A stretch of DNA of 56,551 nt. It comes from a virus. Taxonomy: Duplodnaviria; Caudoviricetes. The position numbers and the translations under genes are program-made. Numbering within the stretch: the stretch's first letter is position 1; each line of letters opens with the position of its first letter. The notes beneath the pieces were generated by a model. That model worked only from the letters and a program-made list of their open reading frames with translations, made no database searches and was not told the origin of the DNA. The stretch covers positions 1 through 56,551 of IMG/VR virus record IMGVR_UViG_3300021138_001866; one strand, written 5' to 3'. Below, piece by piece: positions 2,666 to 46,849 of this stretch.

Positions 2666-3106
2666 TTAAATATTGCGTATATCACGGTATCCATCTAGAA
2701 AGTAAATATTACGAATTGCACCATGGGGATAAAAAATAGGTAACATAAAACGTGCTGTTTCTTCCAGACCTTGTATAACGGGCACTTGTTCAAAATACTG
2801 TTCTAATAGAGCAACCGGATTATTACTGTTAGCATATACACCTGAGTGTTCAACTGCCCATATCCAGGCCCATACTGAGTGACACCCTTGAAAAAAATCT
2901 CCAAATTCGACCCAATCTAAATCTATACCGTCTTTGCGTATAGGACTGATTATTTCTATTGGTTGTGCACCAAGACCTATTGTCTGTACCACTGTTTCCC
3001 AATTACGCTGTTGATTACGAGCTAGTTCTTCACCGTTACGAGTTACTCCGGTGGCAGTAATATCTACTAGAGTGATGCCTGTGTAATAGTGTAACTGTGT
3101 ATTCAT
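2666..3106 (-). CDS. Hypothetical phage protein
   Basis: 146-aa ORF; late-promoter-like CATAAGTA just upstream. Confidence 0.6.
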   Translation of the reverse strand: MNTQLHYYTGITLVDITATGVTRNGEELARNQQRNWETVVQTIGLGAQPIEIISPIRKDGIDLDWVEFGDFFQGCHSVWAWIWAVEHSGVYANSNNPVALLEQYFEQVPVIQGLEETARFMLPIFYPHGAIRNIYFLDGYRDIRNI

Positions 3107-3123
3107 ACAGATACTTATGCCAC

Positions 3124-3155
3124 AAAAAAACCGACCATAAAGATCGGTTTCTTTT
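3124..3155 (-). terminator. Rho-independent terminator
   Basis: ACCGA/TCGGT stem followed by a U-run on the minus strand, downstream of the 3173-3592 gene. Confidence 0.7.
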
Positions 3156-3660: not shown

Positions 3661-4755
3661 CTATAGCCTACCTTGAACATTTGCAGTGGAAAATACGCTA
3701 CGATCTACCAGCTTTATAAACCCGCTGGGAGTATCTATGTTGAATCCTTCGCCCTTGGGTTGTCCGCCCACCGACTGCTCTATACCTGTGACCTGCGAGT
3801 CTAACTGTTTTAATATAGCTAGTTTTAATACAGCTACTTTACTATATACCTGATCTAGTGCTGCCAAAATAGGCTTATTTTTCTTGTCTATTACTATATT
3901 AAATTGTGGGCGTGTTAATTTACTCTGTAGCCAATTACCATCCACTGCTTGATTGGTTGCCTTACGATTATAGTATTGCTGTAGTCGATCTTTGCTGGCC
4001 TGAGTCAGACTGCTTAAAAATTCATCACCACCTAAACTGGCAAAGGTATTTACTGCTCTTATGGCGTCGTTTTTGGCCTTAACCGGTTCTTTCATCTTAA
4101 AGGATGTGCCCATGTTGCCGGTGAATACGGTAATGTATTCGTTAGTGCCAGACAATCCACCTAGGCCCAGCAAACTTTGACGACCGACCAATGGACTGCT
4201 TTTAGACTTTTCTATGTCTGACCCATAGCTGTGTACTGCTAGACCTACAGCACGGCCGGCAATTTGTTTGCCTAGGTCACTGTGAGCATCTACACTATAG
4301 GTTACACCGTGTGGGTTTGGTTTAAACACAAACTTGCCTGCTACAGGAGTCAGTGGATCTGTCCACATTAGATCTCCTTGTACAAATCCTTTGAAATTTG
4401 CAGGGCATATACTGCCTACTGCATTAAACACCTTGGCCAGCATCTGTGCTACTTCTGGATTCTTGGCACGGTCACTAAAAAACTTTATTAGTTCTTCGGC
4501 ACTAGTAACCTGTCCGCCAGCTTCACCAATATACTCTTTATAGTTCATAGTGAAACGACCATCACTGGTTCTACGGCCAAATATAATAGCCGGCGATCCG
4601 TCCCATTTGATGCTGACAGTTTCGGGTTGTTGTACAGCACCAATCATGCCGGTAATAGCATCCATGGCCGCGGTACTACCGCCAAAGATAAAATCTTCAG
4701 GGTGTGGTGTTCGAGCACCTTCCATTAGATTTTGTATAAATTCTAATACTATCAT
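3661..4755 (-). CDS. ATP-dependent ligase-fold (RNA-ligase-like) nucleotidyltransferase
   Basis: Motif I KWDG, motif III-like VQGDLM, motif IV EGFNI, motif V-like FIKLV. Confidence 0.6.
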   Translation of the reverse strand: MIVLEFIQNLMEGARTPHPEDFIFGGSTAAMDAITGMIGAVQQPETVSIKWDGSPAIIFGRRTSDGRFTMNYKEYIGEAGGQVTSAEELIKFFSDRAKNPEVAQMLAKVFNAVGSICPANFKGFVQGDLMWTDPLTPVAGKFVFKPNPHGVTYSVDAHSDLGKQIAGRAVGLAVHSYGSDIEKSKSSPLVGRQSLLGLGGLSGTNEYITVFTGNMGTSFKMKEPVKAKNDAIRAVNTFASLGGDEFLSSLTQASKDRLQQYYNRKATNQAVDGNWLQSKLTRPQFNIVIDKKNKPILAALDQVYSKVAVLKLAILKQLDSQVTGIEQSVGGQPKGEGFNIDTPSGFIKLVDRSVFSTANVQGRL

Positions 4756-5762
4756 TGGAAGTATCCTCGGACCATATCAAGGCCTTGTTGTACTTTTTCT
4801 CTATCATCGTTGGCACGTGCTATTGCGGCTGGTGTTGTGGCTTTGTCGCGCTTCTTGGCTGTAATATCTAACATAGCTTTTTCTTCATAACGTTGCCAAA
4901 ACTTATTAATAAAATCTTGTGCATCTGTAAACTTAGCCAAGTCGCCTTGACCAAACATGCTGTTTAATTCACAGCTACGTGCAAATCCTTTGACACCAAT
5001 GACTAGTTTACTTATTTTAACATCTTCGATGTTGTTGCCAGGAAACTGTTTTAACATCGGATCAATTTGAGGATTGTCGATGCCCAACTGTTGAGCTTCG
5101 TAGACAAATGTATCTAGAATAAATGTTTCTGGATTAGTAGTAACTGTAACAACCTGTGTGCCTTTTTGTTTACTAAACGAAACGTGTTTACCGTCTTGTA
5201 CTTTTAACTGTACACCAGCATGTTGAATACTTAGATCAAGTATTTCGCCTAATACGCTGTATATATTACCTGTTAATAATCCTTTAACACCGCGCTCAGG
5301 AGTAACACGTGCGGCGCCCCATTTTTCTAAACGTTCTGGATGCCACATAAAATCTATTTGTACAAAGTCGTTGTTGCCAACCTGGAATGTAGGATGCCCG
5401 GGTTTGTCTCCTACTTCTACATAGGGTAAACCTGCGCTAATAAATTCATTGGTTAACTTATTCCAGTGTGCGGTAAATTGTGTATAACCTTGTCCTGTTG
5501 CTTCTGGCGCAATCATTTGCAAATCAATATCACCATAAATTTTTTCTGGATTGTCGCGAGCATCTTGTTCGTGATATGCGCTACTTCCTGTTGGCCGTCC
5601 GCGACGTATTTCTCCTACTTGTGCTCCGTATTTTTTGTTAAACTCAGCAACAAAGCGATCAACTACTTGTAAAGCTACACTAACAATCTTAGGGTGTAGG
5701 ACTGTGCCCTGTGTTTTAACAGAATCCCAACCGCCTTCAATAACAAATTCTCTTGCTCTCAT
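4752..5762 (-). CDS. Pol-beta-superfamily nucleotidyltransferase
   Basis: TGSS...GDIDL and a third carboxylate in VQIDF. Confidence 0.65.
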   Translation of the reverse strand: MRAREFVIEGGWDSVKTQGTVLHPKIVSVALQVVDRFVAEFNKKYGAQVGEIRRGRPTGSSAYHEQDARDNPEKIYGDIDLQMIAPEATGQGYTQFTAHWNKLTNEFISAGLPYVEVGDKPGHPTFQVGNNDFVQIDFMWHPERLEKWGAARVTPERGVKGLLTGNIYSVLGEILDLSIQHAGVQLKVQDGKHVSFSKQKGTQVVTVTTNPETFILDTFVYEAQQLGIDNPQIDPMLKQFPGNNIEDVKISKLVIGVKGFARSCELNSMFGQGDLAKFTDAQDFINKFWQRYEEKAMLDITAKKRDKATTPAAIARANDDREKVQQGLDMVRGYFQ

Positions 5763-6559
5763 CGTAGTTTATTGGACCAGTGTCTTAACCACTCGGTTGG
5801 GTGAGCACTATCTTCTAATTGTGGTAGTTGTCTACCTGAACGTTCTAGATATTCCCGGAAATCTTTTAACTTGGTATCACGTTGGGGGTCGTTACGTAAG
5901 GCTGCAACAGTAGATTCAACACCGGCTAGATCTCGTACTGTGCCTGCAGGCAAAAACATCTTGGCCATTACTGCTGGATCATCTGTGACCAATTCATCGG
6001 TAAGACGGTCATGTACTCCGTCGTGCATGGCCACTTTAACGCCTAGTGTTTTGCCAATGCTGTTAAACAGCACAGCACGGTCAACACCTTTGAATTGACT
6101 ACCAGCTGGCATGGCTGCCATCATAAACCTAGTCCACTTCATTCTGTTTACAAAATTAAAATCTGTTTGCACAAACCCATTTTTGATATTGCCGTTTATT
6201 GGAGTGCGGAAATGTATTTCAATACCTGACTGATCAATCCAGCCGGCACGAAAGGCAGGTTGTTTACCTTTGGCCTTACGATTCATTATTTCTTCATCAG
6301 GAATACCGTTATGCTTACACCAGTTTACTAAGGTGCTCATTACTGCGTCTTTGGTTAATACGTTAGCATCTAACAGTAGATCTATATCACCAGATGTTTC
6401 GGTAACGCCGGTACTGCCAACCATGGCATCGCGTAGTGTCAAGCCTGTGATTTGTTCGAGCCAAGCAATGGTAGTAGGCACATCCACACGATTAATACGC
6501 TGTGTTAAAGGTACCTGTTGTTGGTCTTTAAAGACATTACCGCCTTCAAGCAGAATCAT
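5759..6559 (-). CDS. Pol-beta-superfamily nucleotidyltransferase
   Basis: VGSTG...SGDIDL and VQTDF; probable start ATG 6559 (ATGA overlap with the upstream stop). Confidence 0.65.
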   Translation of the reverse strand: MILLEGGNVFKDQQQVPLTQRINRVDVPTTIAWLEQITGLTLRDAMVGSTGVTETSGDIDLLLDANVLTKDAVMSTLVNWCKHNGIPDEEIMNRKAKGKQPAFRAGWIDQSGIEIHFRTPINGNIKNGFVQTDFNFVNRMKWTRFMMAAMPAGSQFKGVDRAVLFNSIGKTLGVKVAMHDGVHDRLTDELVTDDPAVMAKMFLPAGTVRDLAGVESTVAALRNDPQRDTKLKDFREYLERSGRQLPQLEDSAHPTEWLRHWSNKLR

Positions 6560-8796
6560 TTTATCTGATCCCACAGCAGTGCTGAAAAATCAATAGATGA
6601 TTCTTCTAATGCCGGTTTTTTGTTTATTTTACCAGAAGTAACCGGTGTCTTGATAGTATCAACTTGTTGTTGATTTTTTGTTCTTTGATCCGCGTAAAAT
6701 TGATCCATATTAGGGTTCAAAATCCTGCTCGGTTTGTATTTTGTTTGTGTTGGTGCTGTGGTATTTGAATAACTGCTAGGACTTTGACCATAATTTACAG
6801 ATGTGTTGTTGGTGCCGGGTACTGTTGTAGCTCCATTTTTAGATGTAACTGGCGGGTTAGTACCGGTTACATTAGGAACACCGGTGGGTACATTGTATGT
6901 AGGAGTTGCATAACTGCTAGGACTTTGACCATAATTTACAGGTGTCTTTGCCGGCTCGCCGGTTTCTTCATCATAATCAGGTCCGGCTGTGGGTTGGGTT
7001 GTTGGTTGTGTGGCTGTGGGTTGGGTTGTTGGTTGTGTGGCTGTGGGTTGGGTTGTTGGTTGTGTGGCTGTGGGTTGGGTTGTTGCTGGCGTTCCTTGGT
7101 TACGAGCAACCTTGCGACGACCAACATAGTCAGGACTGGTTGGAGTTTCTTGCGCTTGTTTGTCCAACATTGCAGCAACGCTTGCATCAACTGGTTTGTT
7201 GTCGAGCCCAACCCATTGATCGCCAAATTTTTTGTATTGCGTTGGTTTTCCATACCGGTCTTTGATTGTGACCATGTTTTTATCTGTGCCTTTATCGGCC
7301 ACACTTTGTCCAACAGGAGCAAATGCTCCGCGTTTGATTGCATCAGCTGCTCCTTTGGCCAAGTCACCAACCACATTACCAGCTTTGGTTCCTATACCAT
7401 CAGTGGCTTGATCGGTGTCTTGATCGGTGTCTTGTGATACCGTGGCAGGTGATTGCGCACCTGTGTGTGGGTTAACTGCCTGTGCTGGTTGCGCGGCAGG
7501 CTCTGTAGTTGCTGTAGTAGCAGGAGCGGCCTGCACTCTTGCTGGATTAGGTTCCATTGCGCCAGCGGCTTGTGTGGTTACTTGATCTGTATTCTCTGGC
7601 GGTGTCTGTGCTGTGCTAGTAGGAATTTTCATACTGGTATATATTTGATTAATAACTTCGGGACTAACTCCAGCCTGTTGTAATACTTGTGCTACTTCAT
7701 CGCTATCAGTAGGCGAACCAGCTTTCTTCCAGGCAGATTGTAATTTGTCGGCAGTAACCTTGGTAGTTAAGTTCTTGCCTTTGGTCCGTGCCCAATTACC
7801 AACTGCGCCAGCGGCCTTTTTAAACATATCGCCGATGCCTTCGTTAGTTAATTGAACACCACCACGCGGACGACCAATACTTTCGTGTAATGCCCAGGTA
7901 TAAACAGTTAACTTACGATCAACATATCGAGATTCTTTGAATCCACTAAAATCTTGGCCTGCAGCGCCTCCAACAGCTTTTGCAGACCCAAGCATACCTT
8001 CTTTACCTGCTGCACTTAAAAATGCTTTAGTGGCTTCAGCATAGTTAGGATCTGTAGGGCTAATTGTTTGTCCAGCCATTACAATGTCTCCTACTACTTT
8101 ACCATGATCAACTTGAGCAGAAAACGGAATTCCATTTTTAGACCAAGAAATATTATCAATTGATCCAGGAGCACCCTGCAATGCCTTGCCAATCTGTCCA
8201 GCACCGTAAGCCACAGCACCTGTCTTGGCACCAGCGTAAGCGGCACTACTAAACTTTTCACCTTGTAGCAGTTTGTCAGTCATTTTTAATAGACCCAGTG
8301 CGGCTGCACCACCTACACCAGCCCCACTGATACCTGCGGCCGCTATAAGGGCACTATATATTAAACTTTGAGCTATAGGATGTTTTTTAGCAAAATCTCG
8401 ATATTTTTGTATATACTGCATCACACCGGTATCGCCACCGGTTGCTTGCTTTAACTTTTCTGCGGCTTGGTCATACTTGGCATCAATGCCTTGAATAGGA
8501 CCAGAGTTTTGAACTTTAGTTTTTAAATCGTCCCAAGCCTTGTTTACAGCAATAGCAACATCTTTGCCTTGGCCAATCATGGTGCGGTTACCACCTGCAG
8601 CAGTAGCACCTTGTTCAGCTTGTTGGAATAACTGTTGAATTTGTGCTGGAGTTAATTGTGCTTCTATAATTTTACGGCCGGCCGATTCCCATAACTTATA
8701 TGTGCGGCTTTCTGTTAGATTAATGGTCTCACTCAAGTCTTTAGTCTTCTTGTTTAATGCTTTATGTTGCTCATTTACAATATCATTAATCCTCAT
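6556..8796 (-). CDS. Large low-complexity protein, probable internal virion protein
   Basis: 746 aa; Gly/Ala hydrophobic segment and a Thr/Pro/Gln-rich repetitive C-half. Confidence 0.6.
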   Translation of the reverse strand: MRINDIVNEQHKALNKKTKDLSETINLTESRTYKLWESAGRKIIEAQLTPAQIQQLFQQAEQGATAAGGNRTMIGQGKDVAIAVNKAWDDLKTKVQNSGPIQGIDAKYDQAAEKLKQATGGDTGVMQYIQKYRDFAKKHPIAQSLIYSALIAAAGISGAGVGGAAALGLLKMTDKLLQGEKFSSAAYAGAKTGAVAYGAGQIGKALQGAPGSIDNISWSKNGIPFSAQVDHGKVVGDIVMAGQTISPTDPNYAEATKAFLSAAGKEGMLGSAKAVGGAAGQDFSGFKESRYVDRKLTVYTWALHESIGRPRGGVQLTNEGIGDMFKKAAGAVGNWARTKGKNLTTKVTADKLQSAWKKAGSPTDSDEVAQVLQQAGVSPEVINQIYTSMKIPTSTAQTPPENTDQVTTQAAGAMEPNPARVQAAPATTATTEPAAQPAQAVNPHTGAQSPATVSQDTDQDTDQATDGIGTKAGNVVGDLAKGAADAIKRGAFAPVGQSVADKGTDKNMVTIKDRYGKPTQYKKFGDQWVGLDNKPVDASVAAMLDKQAQETPTSPDYVGRRKVARNQGTPATTQPTATQPTTQPTATQPTTQPTATQPTTQPTAGPDYDEETGEPAKTPVNYGQSPSSYATPTYNVPTGVPNVTGTNPPVTSKNGATTVPGTNNTSVNYGQSPSSYSNTTAPTQTKYKPSRILNPNMDQFYADQRTKNQQQVDTIKTPVTSGKINKKPALEESSIDFSALLWDQIK
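6769..6941. repeat. 32-bp perfect direct repeat, two copies
   Basis: ATAACTGCTAGGACTTTGACCATAATTTACAG at 6769-6800 and 6910-6941, encoding VNYGQSPSSY twice. Confidence 0.85.
6985..7085. repeat. 27-bp tandem repeat, about 3.7 copies
   Basis: GGCTGTGGGTTGGGTTGTTGGTTGTGT starting at 6985, 7012, 7039 and 7066; encodes TQPTATQPT. Confidence 0.9.
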
Positions 8797-25812: not shown

Positions 25813-27734
<1,922 letters not shown>

Positions 27735-42418: not shown

Positions 42419-44035
42419 TTACATCAAAAGACTGGATAAATCTATGCCTTGTTGCTCAAACCACTCAGATTGTGTGGGACTCTGTTTGGCTCTTAGGTAA
42501 TTGATGTCACTGAAGGATTTAAACCATTTATCTGCTATTTCTAAAGTAATTGGATCACTTTGACGACATCTACGTGCCATATCTATATTATAATATATTG
42601 CTGTATTGTAATAAAAATGATCTTGCCAAGGTCTAAAGGTGCCATCCCTCATCGAGGCCGGTGTGTGTTTGTAATCTGACAGTATATCAAATAAACGTTC
42701 TTTAAAATTGTTTTGCAAGGCTATATCATGATTACGTAGCCAGTAATTGCTACTGGATCTAGGTGCTAGTCCAAAACTAAAATCTAATCTTTCGCAAATG
42801 CTGTCTTGAGTTTCTAACAAAAAACGACTAAAATCCTTTGGTACATAATTACTGCCTACTGGATCATTTATAAATTTTATTAATTGTAGAATTTGTAATA
42901 TTTGCAGTAAAATGCCGCTGGCATCAAATGCGTCAACAAAACTTGATGCTAGACCTACTAGGCAATAATTTTTACTCCAGGAATTTTCATAACTACCCGG
43001 ATCCCATTTTACCACCAAAGGGTCATGCAATCTTGTATTCGAATCACTACTTTCGACCATTTCGTCTAGAGCCTGATCTACTGTTCTATCAGCTGAATTG
43101 AACACATATCCATAACTTTTTCTATCCAATAGTGTAATGTCAAATAACCAACCGTATTCCATTGCTGTGGCATTGGTAACAGTTATTAATGATTTTTTTA
43201 AATCTTCGGTTGTACGATGTCCATTTGCTATGATTACAGCAGTATTGTGCCGTATACCTGCAGATGCTGTACACCATTTTAAATTTAATTTATGCCCGAG
43301 TACTCTCTTAAAACCAGTACAATCAACATATAAATTACAATTAATTTCTCGACCCTGGTCAAGGAGCAAGGTACTAATAGATCCCGAATCGGTTAATTTA
43401 ATATCCTGCACTGTACCGGTGACCCAGGTATCAATGAGATTACCATATGTTTTTTTTAACCACTCACCAGTTTTAAAACTATTAAGATGTGTGCTAACAT
43501 AGTTATTACTAAAGCGATCTTCAACCCAATTTAATTTATTACCTTTATTGTACCAATAAAATGGGTCATGATGTGACTGGTAATCTTTGTAGTTAATTTT
43601 TCCAGCTTTATATAACTCGTACCATAGGTCATACAATTTATAAGCAGTATTGCCAGGTTCAAGCCAGCTCATTGGCATTTCTTCATCTGACATGTCATTA
43701 TTAAAAATAATTTTATGGTCGGGTGCCAGTCGCATTGGACTATAAAATCCCGAATCGTTCTTGTGCAGGAAATCTTTAAATTCAACACTATATTTGAGAG
43801 TACTACGAGATTCTGTTAGGAACTGGCTTAACCATTTGGGTTGATCGGCGTTAGATATTTTTAAAATTTTAATCATCCATCGAATAAACTCCCCAGGAGC
43901 AGATTCGCCAAATCCAGCATTCTTGGGTTCAACAGGACTATCAATTAAGGTAACGTGTGCGCGAGGACAGTTTTTCTTAATAGCGATTGCTGTAAGAATC
44001 CCAGTGAAACCCGATCCTATTATGCAAATTTTCAT
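42419..44035 (-). CDS. Tryptophan-halogenase-like flavoprotein
   Basis: IIGSGFTG, GFGES, VDCTGF, GWLFDITL, GYVF, GLASSFVD. Confidence 0.75.
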   Translation of the reverse strand: MKICIIGSGFTGILTAIAIKKNCPRAHVTLIDSPVEPKNAGFGESAPGEFIRWMIKILKISNADQPKWLSQFLTESRSTLKYSVEFKDFLHKNDSGFYSPMRLAPDHKIIFNNDMSDEEMPMSWLEPGNTAYKLYDLWYELYKAGKINYKDYQSHHDPFYWYNKGNKLNWVEDRFSNNYVSTHLNSFKTGEWLKKTYGNLIDTWVTGTVQDIKLTDSGSISTLLLDQGREINCNLYVDCTGFKRVLGHKLNLKWCTASAGIRHNTAVIIANGHRTTEDLKKSLITVTNATAMEYGWLFDITLLDRKSYGYVFNSADRTVDQALDEMVESSDSNTRLHDPLVVKWDPGSYENSWSKNYCLVGLASSFVDAFDASGILLQILQILQLIKFINDPVGSNYVPKDFSRFLLETQDSICERLDFSFGLAPRSSSNYWLRNHDIALQNNFKERLFDILSDYKHTPASMRDGTFRPWQDHFYYNTAIYYNIDMARRCRQSDPITLEIADKWFKSFSDINYLRAKQSPTQSEWFEQQGIDLSSLLM

Positions 44036-44048
44036 TATCTAATTTTCT

Positions 44049-44225
44049 TTATCTGCCTCGACCAGCAGATCTTTTGGCTGGTTTATTGCCTTGAACCTGA
44101 GCACCGAACTTAGCCGACTGAACCTGTGCTGTCTTGGCTCCAGGTATTTTAGGATTTGCGGCAACGGTCTTAGCGGCCTGTGCAGCCGCTATAAATGGAT
44201 TTTTACTTTTCTTTTCTTCGGTCAT
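44049..44225 (-). CDS. Small basic Ala/Lys-rich protein (58 aa)
   Basis: Manual translation MTEEKKSKNPFIAAAQAAK...KPAKRSAGRGR; ATGA overlap with the upstream gene. Confidence 0.55.
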   Translation of the reverse strand: MTEEKKSKNPFIAAAQAAKTVAANPKIPGAKTAQVQSAKFGAQVQGNKPAKRSAGRGR

Positions 44226-44419
44226 TCTGCAACTTCTTCTTTGGGTTTTACATATCCTGGACGACTTTGTAATTCTTTGATACGACGATTAATTTTATCT
44301 CGCTCTTTTGGTTTACTAGATTTAGACACCATGTCTTCCAATTGCTTGATATTTAATGGTCCTAAAAGTGTTCGCCCGGTTTTAGTATGACTTGATGTTT
44401 TTTTTGCGTTTGTTGCCAT
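44222..44419 (-). CDS. Small basic protein
   Basis: 65 aa with SD AAGGAG. Confidence 0.6.
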   Translation of the reverse strand: MATNAKKTSSHTKTGRTLLGPLNIKQLEDMVSKSSKPKERDKINRRIKELQSRPGYVKPKEEVAE

Positions 44420-44439
44420 TTAGATCTCCTTGAAAAATT

Positions 44440-44534
44440 TGGCGGAGTGTGTTGGATTCGAACCAACGATACAGTTTTTTGACCATATACTTTCTTAGCA
44501 GGAAAGCGCCTTCGACCGACTCGGCCAACACTCC
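44440..44534 (-). tRNA. tRNA-Ser(GCU)
   Basis: GGAGTGT/ACACTCC acceptor, CTTTC-CT GCT AA-GAAAG anticodon arm, long variable arm, TTCGAAT loop, encoded CCA. Confidence 0.92.
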
Positions 44535-44544
44535 GTATTTTGTG

Positions 44545-44591
44545 TGGTGCCCAGAAAGAGACTCGAACTCTACTAGGGCATAAACTATATT
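44545..44591 (-). pseudogene. 3' half of a split tRNA
   Basis: AATATAG...AGAG-TTCGAGT-CTCT-T-TCTGGGC-A-CCA; acceptor strand is complementary to GCCCAGA at 45271-45277. Confidence 0.8.
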
Positions 44592-44667
44592 GTAACTGGA
44601 ACAGTACTCCAGTATCTACATAAAGGTACCTCTATGTCGTGTTATCTAGTATTACACTATACAAAAC
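44587..44667 (-). ncRNA. tRNA-like cloverleaf with a non-canonical anticodon arm
   Basis: TTGTA/TACAA, GTGT/ACAC, ACATAGAG/CTTTATGT and ACTGGA/TCCAGT stems in tRNA order; no TTC loop and no CCA. Confidence 0.55.
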
Positions 44668-44669
44668 TT

Positions 44670-44754
44670 TGGTGGGCAAGGAGAGACTCGAACTCTCACG
44701 ATTTTACTCGCTGGAACCTAAATCCAGTGCGGCTACCAATTACGCCACTTGCCC
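44670..44754 (-). tRNA. tRNA-Leu(UAG)
   Basis: GGGCAAG/CTTGCCC acceptor, CTGGA-TT TAG GT-TCCAG arm, variable arm, TTCGAGT loop, CCA. Confidence 0.92.
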
Positions 44755-45198
44755 TTTTCTCTTCTCCCAGTGTAACTTAATACTCTCGGAGATTTTTTTC
44801 TTTTGATCCGCTGACTTTGGCTTATCTTTGTTTCCAGAACCGTGTGTGTTACCTTTCTTGCCTTTAGCGTTCATTCTACAGGCTTCTTCGTAACCATATT
44901 TCTCAACCATTCTGTCCCAAGGAGAAGTATTATGCCCTTGATCTAATCTATTCTCTTGTGCTGTTCCCCAATATAGGTGTTTTGGATTACTACACTTTTC
45001 ATTGTTACAGGCATGACATACATGTATCTTATGACCACTTGGTATAGTAGTATCCAATAAATGTGCCATTAGCCCTTTACAATAACTTGATAGTCCGCCT
45101 TTCTGCGGACCACCTCGTTCTACACACGGATCAGTTAAATCTATGTGCGTTTGTCTCTCTACCTTTGATTGTGTAATGTATTCTTCTATTAATAGCAT
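44740..45198 (-). CDS. HNH homing endonuclease with a NUMOD3-like tail
   Basis: HVCHACNNEKCSNPKHLYWGTAQEN; start 45198 after GAGGAG; TATAAATA at 45216-45223; last five codons overlap tRNA-Leu. Confidence 0.82.
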   Translation of the reverse strand: MLLIEEYITQSKVERQTHIDLTDPCVERGGPQKGGLSSYCKGLMAHLLDTTIPSGHKIHVCHACNNEKCSNPKHLYWGTAQENRLDQGHNTSPWDRMVEKYGYEEACRMNAKGKKGNTHGSGNKDKPKSADQKKKISESIKLHWEKRKGQVA

Positions 45199-45241
45199 TT
45201 TACTCTCCTCATGTTTATTTATACTAAACATAAAGAAAACA

Positions 45242-45277
45242 CTAATATAGCGTGTATACCAATTCCACCATCTGGGC
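45242..45277 (-). pseudogene. 5' half of a split tRNA (Leu-type D-arm)
   Basis: GCCCAGA-TG-GTG-GAATTGGTATA-CAC-G-CTATATTAG. Confidence 0.8.
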
Positions 45278-45280
45278 AAA

Positions 45281-45564
45281 ATGCAAACAGTTTGGGCACA
45301 TCTGTTTGCTTTACAACCGCGGACCCCAAACCCCCCAGACCGTCTCTGGGTCGGGCACATATCACAAGTACTGCTACCGTGCAAGCGGCTAAATGCGACT
45401 GTTGTACAAGGACTATAAAACTTTCGTGGCTTTAAAATATTGGCGCCGCTTCGGGGACACCCGATATTAGTATTATTCGAGCGACTTGAACTCTTGCAAT
45501 GCCACATACTGATTCTACCACTGGTATCAAACGGGCGTCACCCCTGTACCCAAACTGTTTACAT
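45281..45564 (-). ncRNA. Candidate ~285-nt structured ncRNA
   Basis: 20-bp terminal stem (45545-45564 with 45281-45300; two G-U pairs on the minus strand), internal helices, and a promoter directly upstream. Confidence 0.65.
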
Positions 45565-45574
45565 CTTAGTAATA

Positions 45575-45603
45575 ATTATAACATAGCAATACTTATTGGT
45601 CAA
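45575..45603 (-). promoter_or_regulatory. Sigma70-type promoter for the ncRNA/tRNA unit
   Basis: TTGACC-17nt-TATAAT with extended -10 TG. Confidence 0.75.
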
Positions 45604-45604
45604 T

Positions 45605-46849
45605 TTATATTTTCACAACTTTAAGTTTTTTATTTTCTACTGCAATTTTATTAGATTGAGTTAAATAATCTCTGTTTATAAATCCTGGTTGATTTAATTC
45701 TGCTGTACTTGGTCCTAAATAGTATAACGTAGAACAGTTTATGTTTAACCCAACCGGTTTTCCCAATTCATATGTAAAATATTTTGGATCAATTTTATGT
45801 AACAAAAAATTTAGTCCCGATTCCCACGCAGAATATAAATTAGTACCGGTTAAATTTGTATAAAACCAATGATCCATTTCGTTGTAAAAACTGTTTGTGG
45901 GTTTAACTGTTTGCCAAGTTTCTACATCATAATCCGGGTATATAATAGATTTTATAACTTGCTCATATGCAGTACGGCGAGCAGGACTGCCCTGTATTCC
46001 TTGAACAAGATGGCCAATATGCCGATTGTGAGGCATATCAAACCAGGTCTTGATTATATGTGCTTGTTTAGCCACTAGTTCAGGTAAGTCCGGAGTCCAA
46101 TAAAACAATTCTGTGGTAATATTTGTGTGATCACCTATTATAGGACATGGGTTATTTGCCTGTAAATCCATGAAGTACAAATACCACTTATTATCAATTA
46201 CAGCAAGTTTAGGTTTGTCAATACCGTGAAGCACACAGATCTTTTTGTTAGAATCTGCTAATTTACGCTGTTCTTGAGTATTAAAATTACCAAACTTGAT
46301 TCCGTGTCCAGGTTGAAACCAATCTCTGGTGGTAAAAACCCATGACTCGTCCCGCAGGTAGTCATCTTTTAATAAGTTTTCACTGTAATCCTGAATGGTG
46401 ATTTTTACCTGTGGATAGTTTGTTTTAATCCAATGTAGCAATGGTTCTGCTGCGTATTTTCTTTCACCTAGGGTATTTTCAGCTCGAGTATTCCACGGAG
46501 CATCAACAGAATCTTTATCCACCTGCTTTGGATATCTAAACATTACTTCGTCGATGTGTATGCCATTTAATAGAAAACTAAAAAGCGCAGTAGCACTATC
46601 ACCTCCGCCTGAACATTCTAATCTAATATAGTCATACCTATCACGTAATTGTTGGGCACGTTGACGATATAATTCTCGTAAATTAGTCTCAGGCTCACTT
46701 TCCCAATTAAATTTAGCAAACTCAATAGGATTAAACTGCCAATCTGGCAGTTCTCCTGTCTGTGTGGCATATATATAGGCGTCGGGTTTTAGATAAAAAA
46801 TTCTATTACCAACTCGATAATACCCAAGTTTAGAATTATGTTCAATCAT
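45605..46849 (-). CDS. PP-loop (adenine nucleotide alpha hydrolase) protein, paralog 3
   Basis: SGGGDS, GIDKP, FYWTPD, KQAH. Confidence 0.7.
   Translation of the reverse strand: MIEHNSKLGYYRVGNRIFYLKPDAYIYATQTGELPDWQFNPIEFAKFNWESEPETNLRELYRQRAQQLRDRYDYIRLECSGGGDSATALFSFLLNGIHIDEVMFRYPKQVDKDSVDAPWNTRAENTLGERKYAAEPLLHWIKTNYPQVKITIQDYSENLLKDDYLRDESWVFTTRDWFQPGHGIKFGNFNTQEQRKLADSNKKICVLHGIDKPKLAVIDNKWYLYFMDLQANNPCPIIGDHTNITTELFYWTPDLPELVAKQAHIIKTWFDMPHNRHIGHLVQGIQGSPARRTAYEQVIKSIIYPDYDVETWQTVKPTNSFYNEMDHWFYTNLTGTNLYSAWESGLNFLLHKIDPKYFTYELGKPVGLNINCSTLYYLGPSTAELNQPGFINRDYLTQSNKIAVENKKLKVVKI

What the first reader, a model, noticed from the sequence alone, without database searches (positions are those of the whole stretch)
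44545..45277. Nested tRNA: a tRNA gene split in its anticodon arm by a cassette carrying an HNH nuclease and a replacement tRNA-Leu
Seen: a tRNA 5' half (GCCCAGA, D-arm, CTATATTAG; 45242-45277) and a 3' half (T-arm, TCTGGGC-A-CCA; 44545-44571) pair perfectly in a 7-bp acceptor stem but lie about 670 nt apart. The inner ends are also complementary (CTATATT at 45244-45250 with AATATAG at 44585-44591), so the halves can still close an extended anticodon stem. Inside sit a late promoter, an SD, an HNH gene and a complete, sequence-divergent tRNA-Leu(UAG) whose first 15 nt encode the HNH C-terminus (GQVA-stop). Inference: a selfish element cut a resident tRNA-Leu(UAG) gene (a TTAG remnant survives) and compensates with its own cleavage-resistant isoacceptor, physically locked to the nuclease by the overlap. 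The outer shell may be kept as an RNase P/3'-processing signal or be rejoined. I see no group I intron core in the insert.
Basis: partly seen in the sequence, partly recalled or inferred. Interest (0 to 1): 0.88.

Follow-up and report, generated by a model that had tools for sequence, protein, structure and literature searches.

The report
Homing nuclease cassette splitting phage tRNA-Leu
A selfish DNA-cutting-enzyme gene that travels with its own spare leucine tRNA gene sits inside, and has broken, this lake phage's resident leucine tRNA gene, while related phages still carry that gene whole at the same spot.

Summary
On the minus strand, a tRNA-Leu(UAG) gene is split after its anticodon. Its 5' part is 45277-45242 and its 3' part is 44591-44545. 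The 650-nt insert carries a late-promoter-like motif, a 152-aa His-Me/HNH nuclease gene, a complete tRNA-Leu(UAG) that overlaps the nuclease stop by 15 nt, and a 78-nt spacer.

The split gene is a true tRNA-Leu. An intact allele (L078) matches its first 29 and last 27 nt exactly. A partly syntenic relative (L133) has an intact tRNA-Leu(UAG) followed by tRNA-Ser(GCU) at the same place.

A second phage contig (L027) carries the same element in unrelated surroundings. The two copies are 100% identical over 681 nt. All 12 differences lie in the outer tRNA parts, and the flanks are unrelated. This is the footprint of homing with co-conversion. No intron model matched.

In relatives the outer remnants are chimeric, truncated or absent, so they look like debris rather than a spliced or rejoined tRNA.

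The closest known systems are the free-standing homing endonucleases of phage tRNA clusters (T4 SegB, T5 F-Tfl). The nested "cut and bring a spare" layout is a new variant; five literature searches found no description of it.

This scan has already noted the same layout on other DNA: 39 notes in at least 30 genomes.

The parts
45575..45603 (-). Sigma-70-like promoter (TTGACC-17-TATAAT, 11 of 12). It is the likely early promoter of the leader and tRNA transcript that reads through the whole locus. Context, inferred.
45242..45277 (-). Outer tRNA-Leu(UAG) 5' remnant: acceptor GCCCAGA, D arm, 5' strand of the anticodon stem, and TTAG of the loop.
   Evidence: The first 29 nt are identical to intact L078 tRNA-Leu(UAG).
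45193..45244 (-). 5'-UTR hairpin that pairs the Shine-Dalgarno sequence (45210-45205) and the AUG and encloses the TATAAATA motif. Predicted to block translation on read-through transcripts.
   Evidence: -15.3 kcal/mol, z -4.37, 0 of 200 shuffles as stable. The core stem and TAAATA are conserved in 16 of 16 aligned relatives.
45216..45223 (-). TATAAATA, a T4-type late-promoter-like motif (the consensus is recalled, not from a call).
   Evidence: The motif count in the window is not above chance (5 found against a mean of 7.5 in shuffles). The weight rests on conservation upstream of the homologues.
44740..45198 (-). HNH / His-Me-finger homing-endonuclease gene, 152 aa (P0001).
44670..44754 (-). 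Complete inner tRNA-Leu(UAG) with CCA. Positions 1-12 encode the last four HNH residues, and D-loop TAA (positions 13-15) is the HNH stop codon.
44592..44669 (-). 78-nt spacer that belongs to the mobile element. It is loosely tRNA-shaped with no tRNA signatures, and is probably a decayed tRNA.
   Evidence: 100% shared with L027. Fold not better than shuffles (z -0.68). No Rfam match. The other nested loci have no counterpart.
44545..44591 (-). Outer tRNA-Leu(UAG) 3' remnant: AA of the loop, 3' strand of the anticodon stem, a degenerate variable region, T arm, acceptor TCTGGGC, A, CCA.
   Evidence: The last 27 nt are identical to L078.
44575..45255 (-). 681-nt tract 100% identical to locus L027: the element plus 14 nt and 17 nt of co-converted tRNA sequence.
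44440..44534 (-). tRNA-Ser(GCU), the resident downstream neighbour. The same neighbour follows the intact tRNA-Leu(UAG) in L133.

Best explanation
This is a mobile 'cut and bring a spare' cassette. A free-standing His-Me/HNH homing endonuclease gene is fused by a 15-nt overlap to its own tRNA-Leu(UAG) gene. The cassette has been copied into the anticodon loop of the phage's resident tRNA-Leu(UAG) gene.

Shown here:
- The resident gene is a true tRNA-Leu(UAG), interrupted after the anticodon.
- Related phages have it intact at the same place.
- The identical cassette sits in a different tRNA-Leu allele of another phage, with co-converted tRNA sequence at both junctions.
- No intron is present.

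Inferred mechanism:
- The nuclease cuts intact tRNA-Leu genes of co-infecting phages near the anticodon.
- The break is repaired from the donor, using the conserved D-arm and T-arm sequences of the flanking remnants as short homology arms. This lets the element enter phages whose surrounding genes are unrelated.
- The broken outer gene is non-functional debris, and the carried tRNA-Leu(UAG) replaces its function, so the host phage pays little cost.

Inferred expression control, following the T4 pattern:
- On early read-through transcripts a hairpin hides the ribosome-binding site and the AUG.
- A late-promoter-like TATAAATA inside that hairpin would give a translatable late mRNA.
- RNase P maturation of the inner tRNA would cut the nuclease mRNA 15 nt before the end of its stop codon.
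For: 1. Identity of the split gene. The first 29 and last 27 nt equal the intact L078 tRNA-Leu(UAG). Of 122 pattern matches, 111 are intact tRNA-Leu genes, 69 of them UAG.

2. Empty site. L133 has a homologous upstream intergenic stretch, then an intact tRNA-Leu(UAG), then tRNA-Ser(GCU) 6 nt later, the same order as in the window.

3. Mobility.
- Similarity between the window and L027 starts and stops exactly at the outer tRNA ends (45277-44545; 98.6% of 734 nt).
- 45255-44575 is 100% identical, all 12 differences lie in the outer parts, and the flanks are unrelated.
- Two acceptor pairs change on both sides and a third goes from G-C to G-U.
- L027 and L035 share the outer 5' part (100% of 26 nt) but carry cassettes only 75% identical. 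The window and L027 share the cassette (100%), but their outer 5' parts are 85% identical.

4. Family pattern, 26 loci.
- The next tRNA is a tRNA-Leu in 22.
- The overlap is exactly 15 nt in 11, and there is some overlap in 18.
- A 5' remnant is present in 13; both remnants are present in 6.

5. Remnants are debris.
- The L027 T stem is chimeric, with 2 of 5 pairs.
- The 3' remnants in L035 and L120 lack the anticodon-stem strand and have TCTTAA in place of the T loop.
- Breakpoints differ in L045 and L055.
- L120 holds a further tRNA 3' fragment.

6. No intron family matched at E<=10.

7. Nuclease.
- PHROG 1872 'endonuclease', E 2e-10.
- Invariant C61 H62 C64 N66 C69 W77 N83 in 23 sequences.
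- The motif aligns to I-PpoI.
- I-PpoI chains are the top four fold matches.

8. Hairpin.
Against: - No enzymology. Cleavage of the intact allele, the position of the cut and the resistance of the inner tRNA gene are all inferred.
- Pfam HNH_3 (20.5 bits against 24.8) and zf-His_Me_endon (22.5 against 27) fall below their curated cut-offs. The fold matches are weak (E 0.16-0.38, 33-45 columns).
- The homology arms left outside the identical tract are only about 22 and 30 nt long, which is short for recombinational repair.
- The acceptor covariation may date from before each invasion. It neither proves nor disproves a present function of the halves.
- The window's own halves are undamaged outside the co-converted tract, so their decay is inferred from relatives only.
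- HNH and inner tRNA are not always co-inherited. L032 and L037 have 100% identical inner tRNAs but HNH proteins only 76% identical.
- TATAAATA is not more frequent in the window than chance.
Confidence: 0.8

Rival explanations
1. The outer halves are still functional. After RNase P and 3' processing remove the inner tRNA, the two halves pair through the 7-bp acceptor and the 7-bp inner helix. They then act as a processing scaffold for the nuclease mRNA, or are rejoined by an RNA ligase into a working tRNA.
For: Both helices are intact in the window. The acceptor stays paired through compensatory changes in the window, L027, L120, L045 and L041, and is paired in 6 of 7 positions in L055. In 98 of 120 in-silico joins around the junction, ARAGORN sees a cloverleaf at its default threshold.
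Against: - The natural join gives a 6-nt anticodon loop, which ARAGORN cannot name.
- The variable region has no proper stem (against L078).
- The L027 T stem keeps 2 of 5 pairs.
- L035, L120, L045 and L055 lack the 3' strand of the anticodon stem.
- Seven of the 13 loci with a 5' remnant have no 3' remnant, and 13 of 26 loci have neither.
- No RNA ligase family was recognised in the three candidate ORFs scanned.
Confidence: 0.06
2. The insert is a self-splicing intron (group I or other) in the anticodon loop, with an intron-encoded endonuclease, as in bacterial tRNA-Leu(UAA) introns.
For: The insert lies in the anticodon loop of a tRNA-Leu, an endonuclease ORF lies inside it, and it shows a homing-type footprint.
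Against: - No Rfam intron family matched at E<=10.
- After the ORF and the 85-nt tRNA, only 43 nt upstream of the ORF and the 78-nt spacer remain, and the spacer fold is no better than shuffles.
- The junction positions in the tRNA differ between lineages.
- The joined exons lack one loop base.
Confidence: 0.03
3. The arrangement arose by a local partial duplication of one resident tRNA-Leu around a nuclease gene that had inserted beside it, not by entry of a foreign cassette into the gene.
For: In L052 the 5' remnant has the same acceptor as the tRNA downstream of the HNH gene (GCGGGCG). L036 and L055 have whole tRNA-Leu genes on both sides of the HNH gene.
Against: - In the window, the inner and outer tRNAs differ in the acceptor stem (GGGCAAG against GCCCAGA), the D stem and the anticodon stem.
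- The outer parts match L078 exactly, while the inner tRNA is 92% identical to the inner tRNA of L028.
- The cassette is 100% identical in L027, inside a different outer allele.
Confidence: 0.07
4. Assembly artefact: a chimeric contig joined across similar tRNA genes.
For: tRNA clusters are repeat-rich, and many contigs in the runs break at tRNA genes (tables 5 and 7).
Against: The same layout occurs in independent assemblies: L027/L074, L035/L142, L120, L045 and L055. A 1395-nt contig of run X1 covers 44488-45500 with one difference (table 8).
Confidence: 0.01

Closest known systems
Phage T4 SegB, a free-standing GIY-YIG homing endonuclease in the tRNA gene cluster (PMC2330249: abstract and Discussion part 1 read; PMC13096335: abstract and section 10 read)
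   Same: - It is a nuclease gene embedded in a phage tRNA cluster that targets tRNA genes and spreads itself and neighbouring tRNA genes by intronless homing.
- A hairpin is predicted to hide the Shine-Dalgarno sequence and the start codon.
- The ORF end abuts a downstream tRNA, so tRNA maturation is proposed to cut the mRNA at the stop codon.
   Different: - SegB is GIY-YIG, not His-Me/HNH.
- It lies between tRNA genes, recognises the T-arm motif of many isotypes, and shows no isotype preference.
- The element here is tied to tRNA-Leu (22 of 26 loci), sits inside its target gene, leaves both halves behind, and carries a replacement isoacceptor.
Phage T5 F-TflI, F-TflII and F-TflIV, HNH endonucleases of the T5 tRNA gene region (Akulenko et al. 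2004; not read, known only through citations in PMC10644984 and PMC2330249)
   Same: They are HNH-type nuclease ORFs inside a phage tRNA cluster and are regarded as mobile homing genes. Processing of the tRNA transcript is proposed to lower their expression.
   Different: The passages read describe no nesting inside a tRNA gene and no linked spare tRNA. Sequence relatedness to P0001 was not tested.
Group I introns with homing endonucleases in bacterial tRNA anticodon loops, such as the cyanobacterial tRNA-Leu(UAA) intron (recalled, not read)
   Same: A mobile insert in the anticodon loop of a tRNA-Leu gene, with a homing-type footprint.
   Different: No ribozyme was detected. The cost to the host is avoided by a spare gene copy rather than by splicing. 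Junction positions vary between lineages.
I-PpoI, a His-Cys box (His-Me finger) homing endonuclease
   Same: The catalytic motif aligns (residues 47-84 of P0001 to 83-120 of I-PpoI). I-PpoI chains are the four best fold matches.
   Different: The similarity is limited to 33-45 columns and is not significant (phmmer E 0.028-0.88 for the four I-PpoI sequences; Foldseek E 0.16-0.38). I-PpoI is intron-encoded in a eukaryotic rDNA.

Membership tests
Free-standing homing endonuclease gene (intronless homing, T4 Seg/Mob type) | Presence/absence polymorphism at one locus among related genomes | tested here: met
   L133 has an intact tRNA-Leu(UAG) then tRNA-Ser(GCU) behind a homologous upstream stretch. 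L078 and L138 carry an intact allele whose ends are identical to the window's halves.
Free-standing homing endonuclease gene (intronless homing, T4 Seg/Mob type) | Co-conversion of flanking sequence with the nuclease gene | tested here: met
   The 681-nt 100% identical tract includes 14 nt and 17 nt of tRNA sequence. All 12 differences lie further out and the flanks are unrelated.
Free-standing homing endonuclease gene (intronless homing, T4 Seg/Mob type) | Site-specific cleavage of the allele without the nuclease gene, and resistance of the allele that carries it | not testable with these tools
   Needs purified protein and DNA substrates.
Free-standing homing endonuclease gene (intronless homing, T4 Seg/Mob type) | Not inside an intron or an intein | tested here: met
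   No intron family at E<=10 in 43900-45900. The ORF has its own Shine-Dalgarno sequence and start codon.
HNH / His-Me finger nucleases (Pfam PF13392 HNH_3, PF05551 zf-His_Me_endon) | Profile match above the curated cut-off | tested here: not met
   20.5 bits against 24.8, and 22.5 against 27. PHROG 1872 'endonuclease' matches at E 2e-10.
HNH / His-Me finger nucleases (Pfam PF13392 HNH_3, PF05551 zf-His_Me_endon) | Conserved catalytic His and Asn and metal-binding Cys residues on a beta-beta-alpha core | tested here: met
   Invariant C61 H62 C64 N66 C69 W77 N83 in 23 sequences. The model has strands 58-62 and 75-79 followed by helix 80-86, mean pLDDT 79. The motif aligns to I-PpoI (weak scores).
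Group I intron in a tRNA anticodon loop | Ribozyme core detectable by a covariance model | tested here: not met
   No Intron_gpI or other intron match at E<=10.
Group I intron in a tRNA anticodon loop | Exact removal restores a canonical tRNA | tested here: not met
   The end-to-end join has a 6-nt loop, and ARAGORN reports an unnamed 2-nt anticodon. It is one base shorter than L078.
Split or trans-joined tRNA (archaeal type) | Halves consistently keep all tRNA elements and pair through a dedicated helix | tested here: not met
   3' remnants are missing in 7 of the 13 loci with a 5' remnant. They are truncated or have an abnormal T loop in L035, L120, L045 and L055.
tRNA (Rfam RF00005), for the inner gene | Covariance-model score above the gathering threshold, with a canonical anticodon loop and CCA | tested here: met
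   54.2 bits against 29. ARAGORN calls tRNA-Leu(tag), 85 nt.

The most novel reading that the evidence does not exclude
The two outer halves are not dead. Once RNase P and 3' processing excise the inner tRNA from the early transcript, the halves stay together through their 7-bp acceptor helix and 7-bp inner helix. They are then used either as a bacterial-virus split tRNA, possibly sealed by a phage RNA-repair ligase, or as a tRNA-shaped clamp that delimits and times the nuclease mRNA. That would make this the first split tRNA outside archaea, created by a homing element.
Probability: 0.05. Interest if true: 0.9.

Novelty: new variant of a known kind. Interest (0 to 1): 0.6.

Why it matters
Homing endonuclease genes are known to avoid harming their host in two ways. 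Some hide in a self-splicing intron or intein. Others sit between genes.

This locus shows a third way. The element lands inside its target gene, destroys it, and supplies a working copy of the same gene that is physically overlapped with the nuclease gene. In effect it is a natural cut-and-rescue drive.

tRNA sequences are conserved across unrelated phages, so the remnants can act as portable homology arms. The 100% identical copy in unrelated surroundings shows that such transfer happens in lake phage populations.

The locus also offers a simple system for studying three things: how tRNA repertoires of large phages are reshuffled, how short a homology arm can support homing, and how tRNA maturation can throttle a toxic nuclease mRNA.

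Tried and rejected
- ARAGORN with introns up to 1500 nt did not call the outer gene.
- A first scan of 690 in-silico joins at a lowered ARAGORN threshold was uninformative: 502 passed. It was replaced by 120 joins at the default threshold.
- A strict search for split tRNAs (exact 7-mer plus a T-loop word) missed cases with G-U pairs or shifted register. It was replaced and by reading.
- blastn of the locus against GenBank phages found only tRNA-Leu similarity and no close relative.
- tblastn of the nuclease found three cultured-phage homologues at 45-55% identity. In Citrobacter phage Ursula the gene ends a tRNA cluster and no tRNA-Leu is annotated after it. In Klebsiella phage vB_Kpn_AM_K6 no tRNAs are annotated in the stretch. 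The third hit, Ralstonia phage RsoM2USA, was not inspected.
- Reads. Only Logan contigs were available, so levels, ends and absence cannot be judged.
  - No joint removed the insert cleanly.
  - Every joint listed carried 17-32 other letters between its sides, or 'between: not known', and had sides of 20-27 letters. These joints fit other tRNA-Leu genes of the samples.
  - One such intact tRNA-Leu-like contig in DNA run X1 has a depth (131.9) close to that of the window's contig (126.8). It could not be placed.
  - RNA-library contigs of X16 and X20 carry the cassette and run on into 3' ends (…CTTACCC-A-CCA and …TTGGGGC-A-CCA by my reverse complement of the loose ends) that differ from the window and L027. 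They hint at further outer alleles, but DNA carry-over cannot be excluded.
- The spacer fold is not better than shuffles.
- TATAAATA is not enriched in the window.
- A Pfam scan of three ORFs at 3661-6574, noted earlier in this scan as nucleotidyltransferase- or ligase-like, gave only DUF6267.
- The pairwise aligner settings produced scattered gaps. Only the identical end blocks were used from it.
- Literature searches found no description of a nuclease-plus-spare-tRNA cassette nested in a tRNA gene. Subscription journals are not covered. Supplementary files (for example the neighbourhood tables of PMC13096335) were closed and may hold such cases.
Full report
**What is there**

The window is a 56.5-kb fragment of an uncultured phage from IMG/VR. 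It encodes a GroEL, a helicase and a tryptophan halogenase.

The cultured phages with a related nuclease whose records I opened (Citrobacter phage Ursula and Klebsiella phage vB_Kpn_AM_K6) are Straboviridae. Runs that hold the stretch are lake and freshwater metagenomes.

Read on the minus strand, the locus contains, in order:
- a tRNA 5' part at 45277-45242;
- a 43-nt leader with TATAAATA (45223-45216) and GAGGAG (45210-45205);
- a 152-aa ORF at 45198-44740;
- a complete tRNA-Leu(UAG) at 44754-44670;
- a 78-nt spacer;
- a tRNA 3' part at 44591-44545, ending in A-CCA;
- tRNA-Ser(GCU) at 44534-44440, 10 nt further on.

**The split gene is a real tRNA-Leu(UAG)**

ARAGORN of the 122 as intact tRNA-Leu genes, 69 of them with anticodon UAG.

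The best match, L078 12049-12133, is identical to the window over the first 29 and the last 27 nt. Compared with it, the window's anticodon stem carries three compensated pair changes, the loop keeps TTAG…AA but lacks one base, and the variable region has no proper stem.

L133 gives the empty site. The last 65 or so bases upstream of the gene are homologous to the window's. They are followed by an intact tRNA-Leu(UAG) and, 6 nt later, by tRNA-Ser(GCU).

**The insert is mobile**

L027 comes from another contig, and its surroundings are unrelated to the window's. It matches the window from 45277 to 44545 exactly, which are the ends of the outer tRNA.

Within that span 45255-44575 is 100% identical. 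The 12 differences lie at 45273, 45271, 45265, 45256, 44574, 44573, 44559, 44558 and 44556-44553.

The acceptor stem is GCCCAGA/TCTGGGC in the window and GCCCTGG/CTAGGGC in L027. That is two changes on both sides and one G-C to G-U. So an identical element, with short co-converted tracts, sits in two diverged alleles of the target gene. This is the classical footprint of homing.

L035 shares L027's outer 5' part (100% of 26 nt) and its upstream flank, but carries a cassette only 75% identical. The halves therefore follow the host genome, while the nuclease follows the element.

**A family with a fixed design**

I examined 26 loci with a homologue of the nuclease. Eight further loci (L030, L031, L033, L040, L042, L050, L051, L054) looked like duplicates by tRNA layout and were dropped. 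One search gives these counts:
- The next tRNA is a tRNA-Leu (UAG, UAA or CAA) in 22 of 26.
- The ORF overlaps the tRNA by exactly 15 nt in 11 of 26, and by some length in 18 of 26.
- A tRNA-Leu 5' remnant precedes the ORF in 13 of 26.
- A pairing 3' remnant with CCA follows the inner tRNA in 6 of 26 (window, L027, L035, L045, L055, L120). L041 has a minimal version.

In the 15-nt overlaps, tRNA positions 1-12 encode the last four residues and the D-loop TAA is the stop codon. This holds down to 53% protein identity (L045).

**The remnants look like debris**

- L027's T stem is a chimera that keeps 2 of 5 pairs.
- The 3' remnants of L035 and L120 start in the variable region and have TCTTAA where the T loop should be. 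An intact allele with the same 3' strand, L149, has a normal T arm.
- L045 and L055 keep only the T arm and the acceptor strand.
- L120 holds an extra 3' fragment of yet another tRNA.
- Seven loci keep only the 5' part.
- In the window the end-to-end join has a 6-nt loop.

Breakpoints that vary, with no intron model matched, argue against splicing.

**The nuclease**

Pfam matches are below their cut-offs. PHROG 1872 'endonuclease' matches at E 2e-10. Twenty-three aligned sequences keep C61 H62 C64 N66 C69 W77 N83.

The motif aligns with the catalytic region of I-PpoI. An AlphaFold model (mean pLDDT 79) finds I-PpoI as its four best PDB matches, but weakly. I read the protein as a His-Me/HNH homing nuclease. 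Its activity and its target are inferred.

**Expression (inferred)**

A strong sigma-70-like promoter lies at 45603-45575. It would give a read-through transcript of the whole locus.

On that transcript a hairpin (45244-45193; -15.3 kcal/mol; z -4.4) pairs the ribosome-binding site and the AUG. TATAAATA lies in its loop and 3' strand. The TAAATA core and the flanking inverted repeat recur upstream of all 16 aligned homologues.

This matches the control described for T4 homing nucleases. The SegB paper also proposes that maturation of the downstream tRNA cuts the mRNA at its stop codon.

**Comparison and novelty**

Nucleases in phage tRNA clusters that home and carry tRNA genes along are known:
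- SegB;
- the T5 F-Tfl enzymes, seen only as citations;
- HNH genes in mycobacteriophage tRNA clusters.

The new points are the position inside the target gene, the retained halves, the strict tie to tRNA-Leu and the overlapped spare isoacceptor. Five full-text searches found no description of this layout.

This scan has noted the layout before on other DNA: 39 notes in at least 30 genomes, several with follow-ups that reached the same reading. I did not use those notes as evidence.

**Verdict**

Confidence in the best explanation is 0.8. Novelty: a new variant of a known kind. Interest: 0.6.

Noticed in passing
window 45281-45564 (minus strand): A non-coding leader of about 285 nt lies between a strong sigma-70-like promoter (45603-45575) and the split tRNA. 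Its last 65 or so bases are conserved in L133 upstream of the intact tRNA-Leu.
   Followed up: partly
window 44592-44669 (minus strand): The spacer between the inner tRNA and the 3' remnant can be drawn as a cloverleaf with an 8-bp, 4-nt-loop 'anticodon' arm, but it lacks tRNA signatures. Its fold is no better than shuffles (z -0.68). It travels with the cassette (100% identical in L027) and is absent from the other nested loci.
   Followed up: partly
L145, minus strand from 4154: A tRNA-Leu-like gene of about 108 nt has normal acceptor, D and T arms. Roughly 20 extra bases sit in the anticodon region, and ARAGORN does not call it. It may be a small insert or a decayed gene.
   Followed up: no
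L110, minus strand from 1086: A tRNA-Leu(UAG)-like gene whose T arm is interrupted by a GC-rich hairpin of about 35 nt.
   Followed up: no
L143 from 374: A tRNA-Leu 5' part is followed by about 560 nt with no homologue of this nuclease, then a tRNA-Leu(CAA). This may be a different cassette in the same kind of site.
   Followed up: no
L028 362-508; L006 2435-2510: ARAGORN calls suppressor-type tRNAs in these phage contigs: anticodons CUA and UUA back to back in L028, and CUA in L006. This hints at stop-codon reassignment.
   Followed up: no
L027 1522-1611; L036 2023-2117; L052 3506-3597; L006 10991-11084; L133 1991-2084: ARAGORN calls unusually long tRNAs (90-95 nt) as tRNA-Ile(UAU) in several of these phage tRNA clusters. 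L052's carries a long extra arm; the others were not read.
   Followed up: no
L120, reverse strand 3095-3130: A stray 3' fragment of a third tRNA (ending …CCAGCCGC-A-CCA) lies between the inner tRNA and the outer 3' remnant. It looks like a scar of serial invasions.
   Followed up: partly
window 42419-44035 and 25813-27432 (minus strand): The phage encodes a tryptophan-halogenase-family protein (Pfam E 1e-45) and a GroEL-type chaperonin (PHROG E 1e-179).
   Followed up: no
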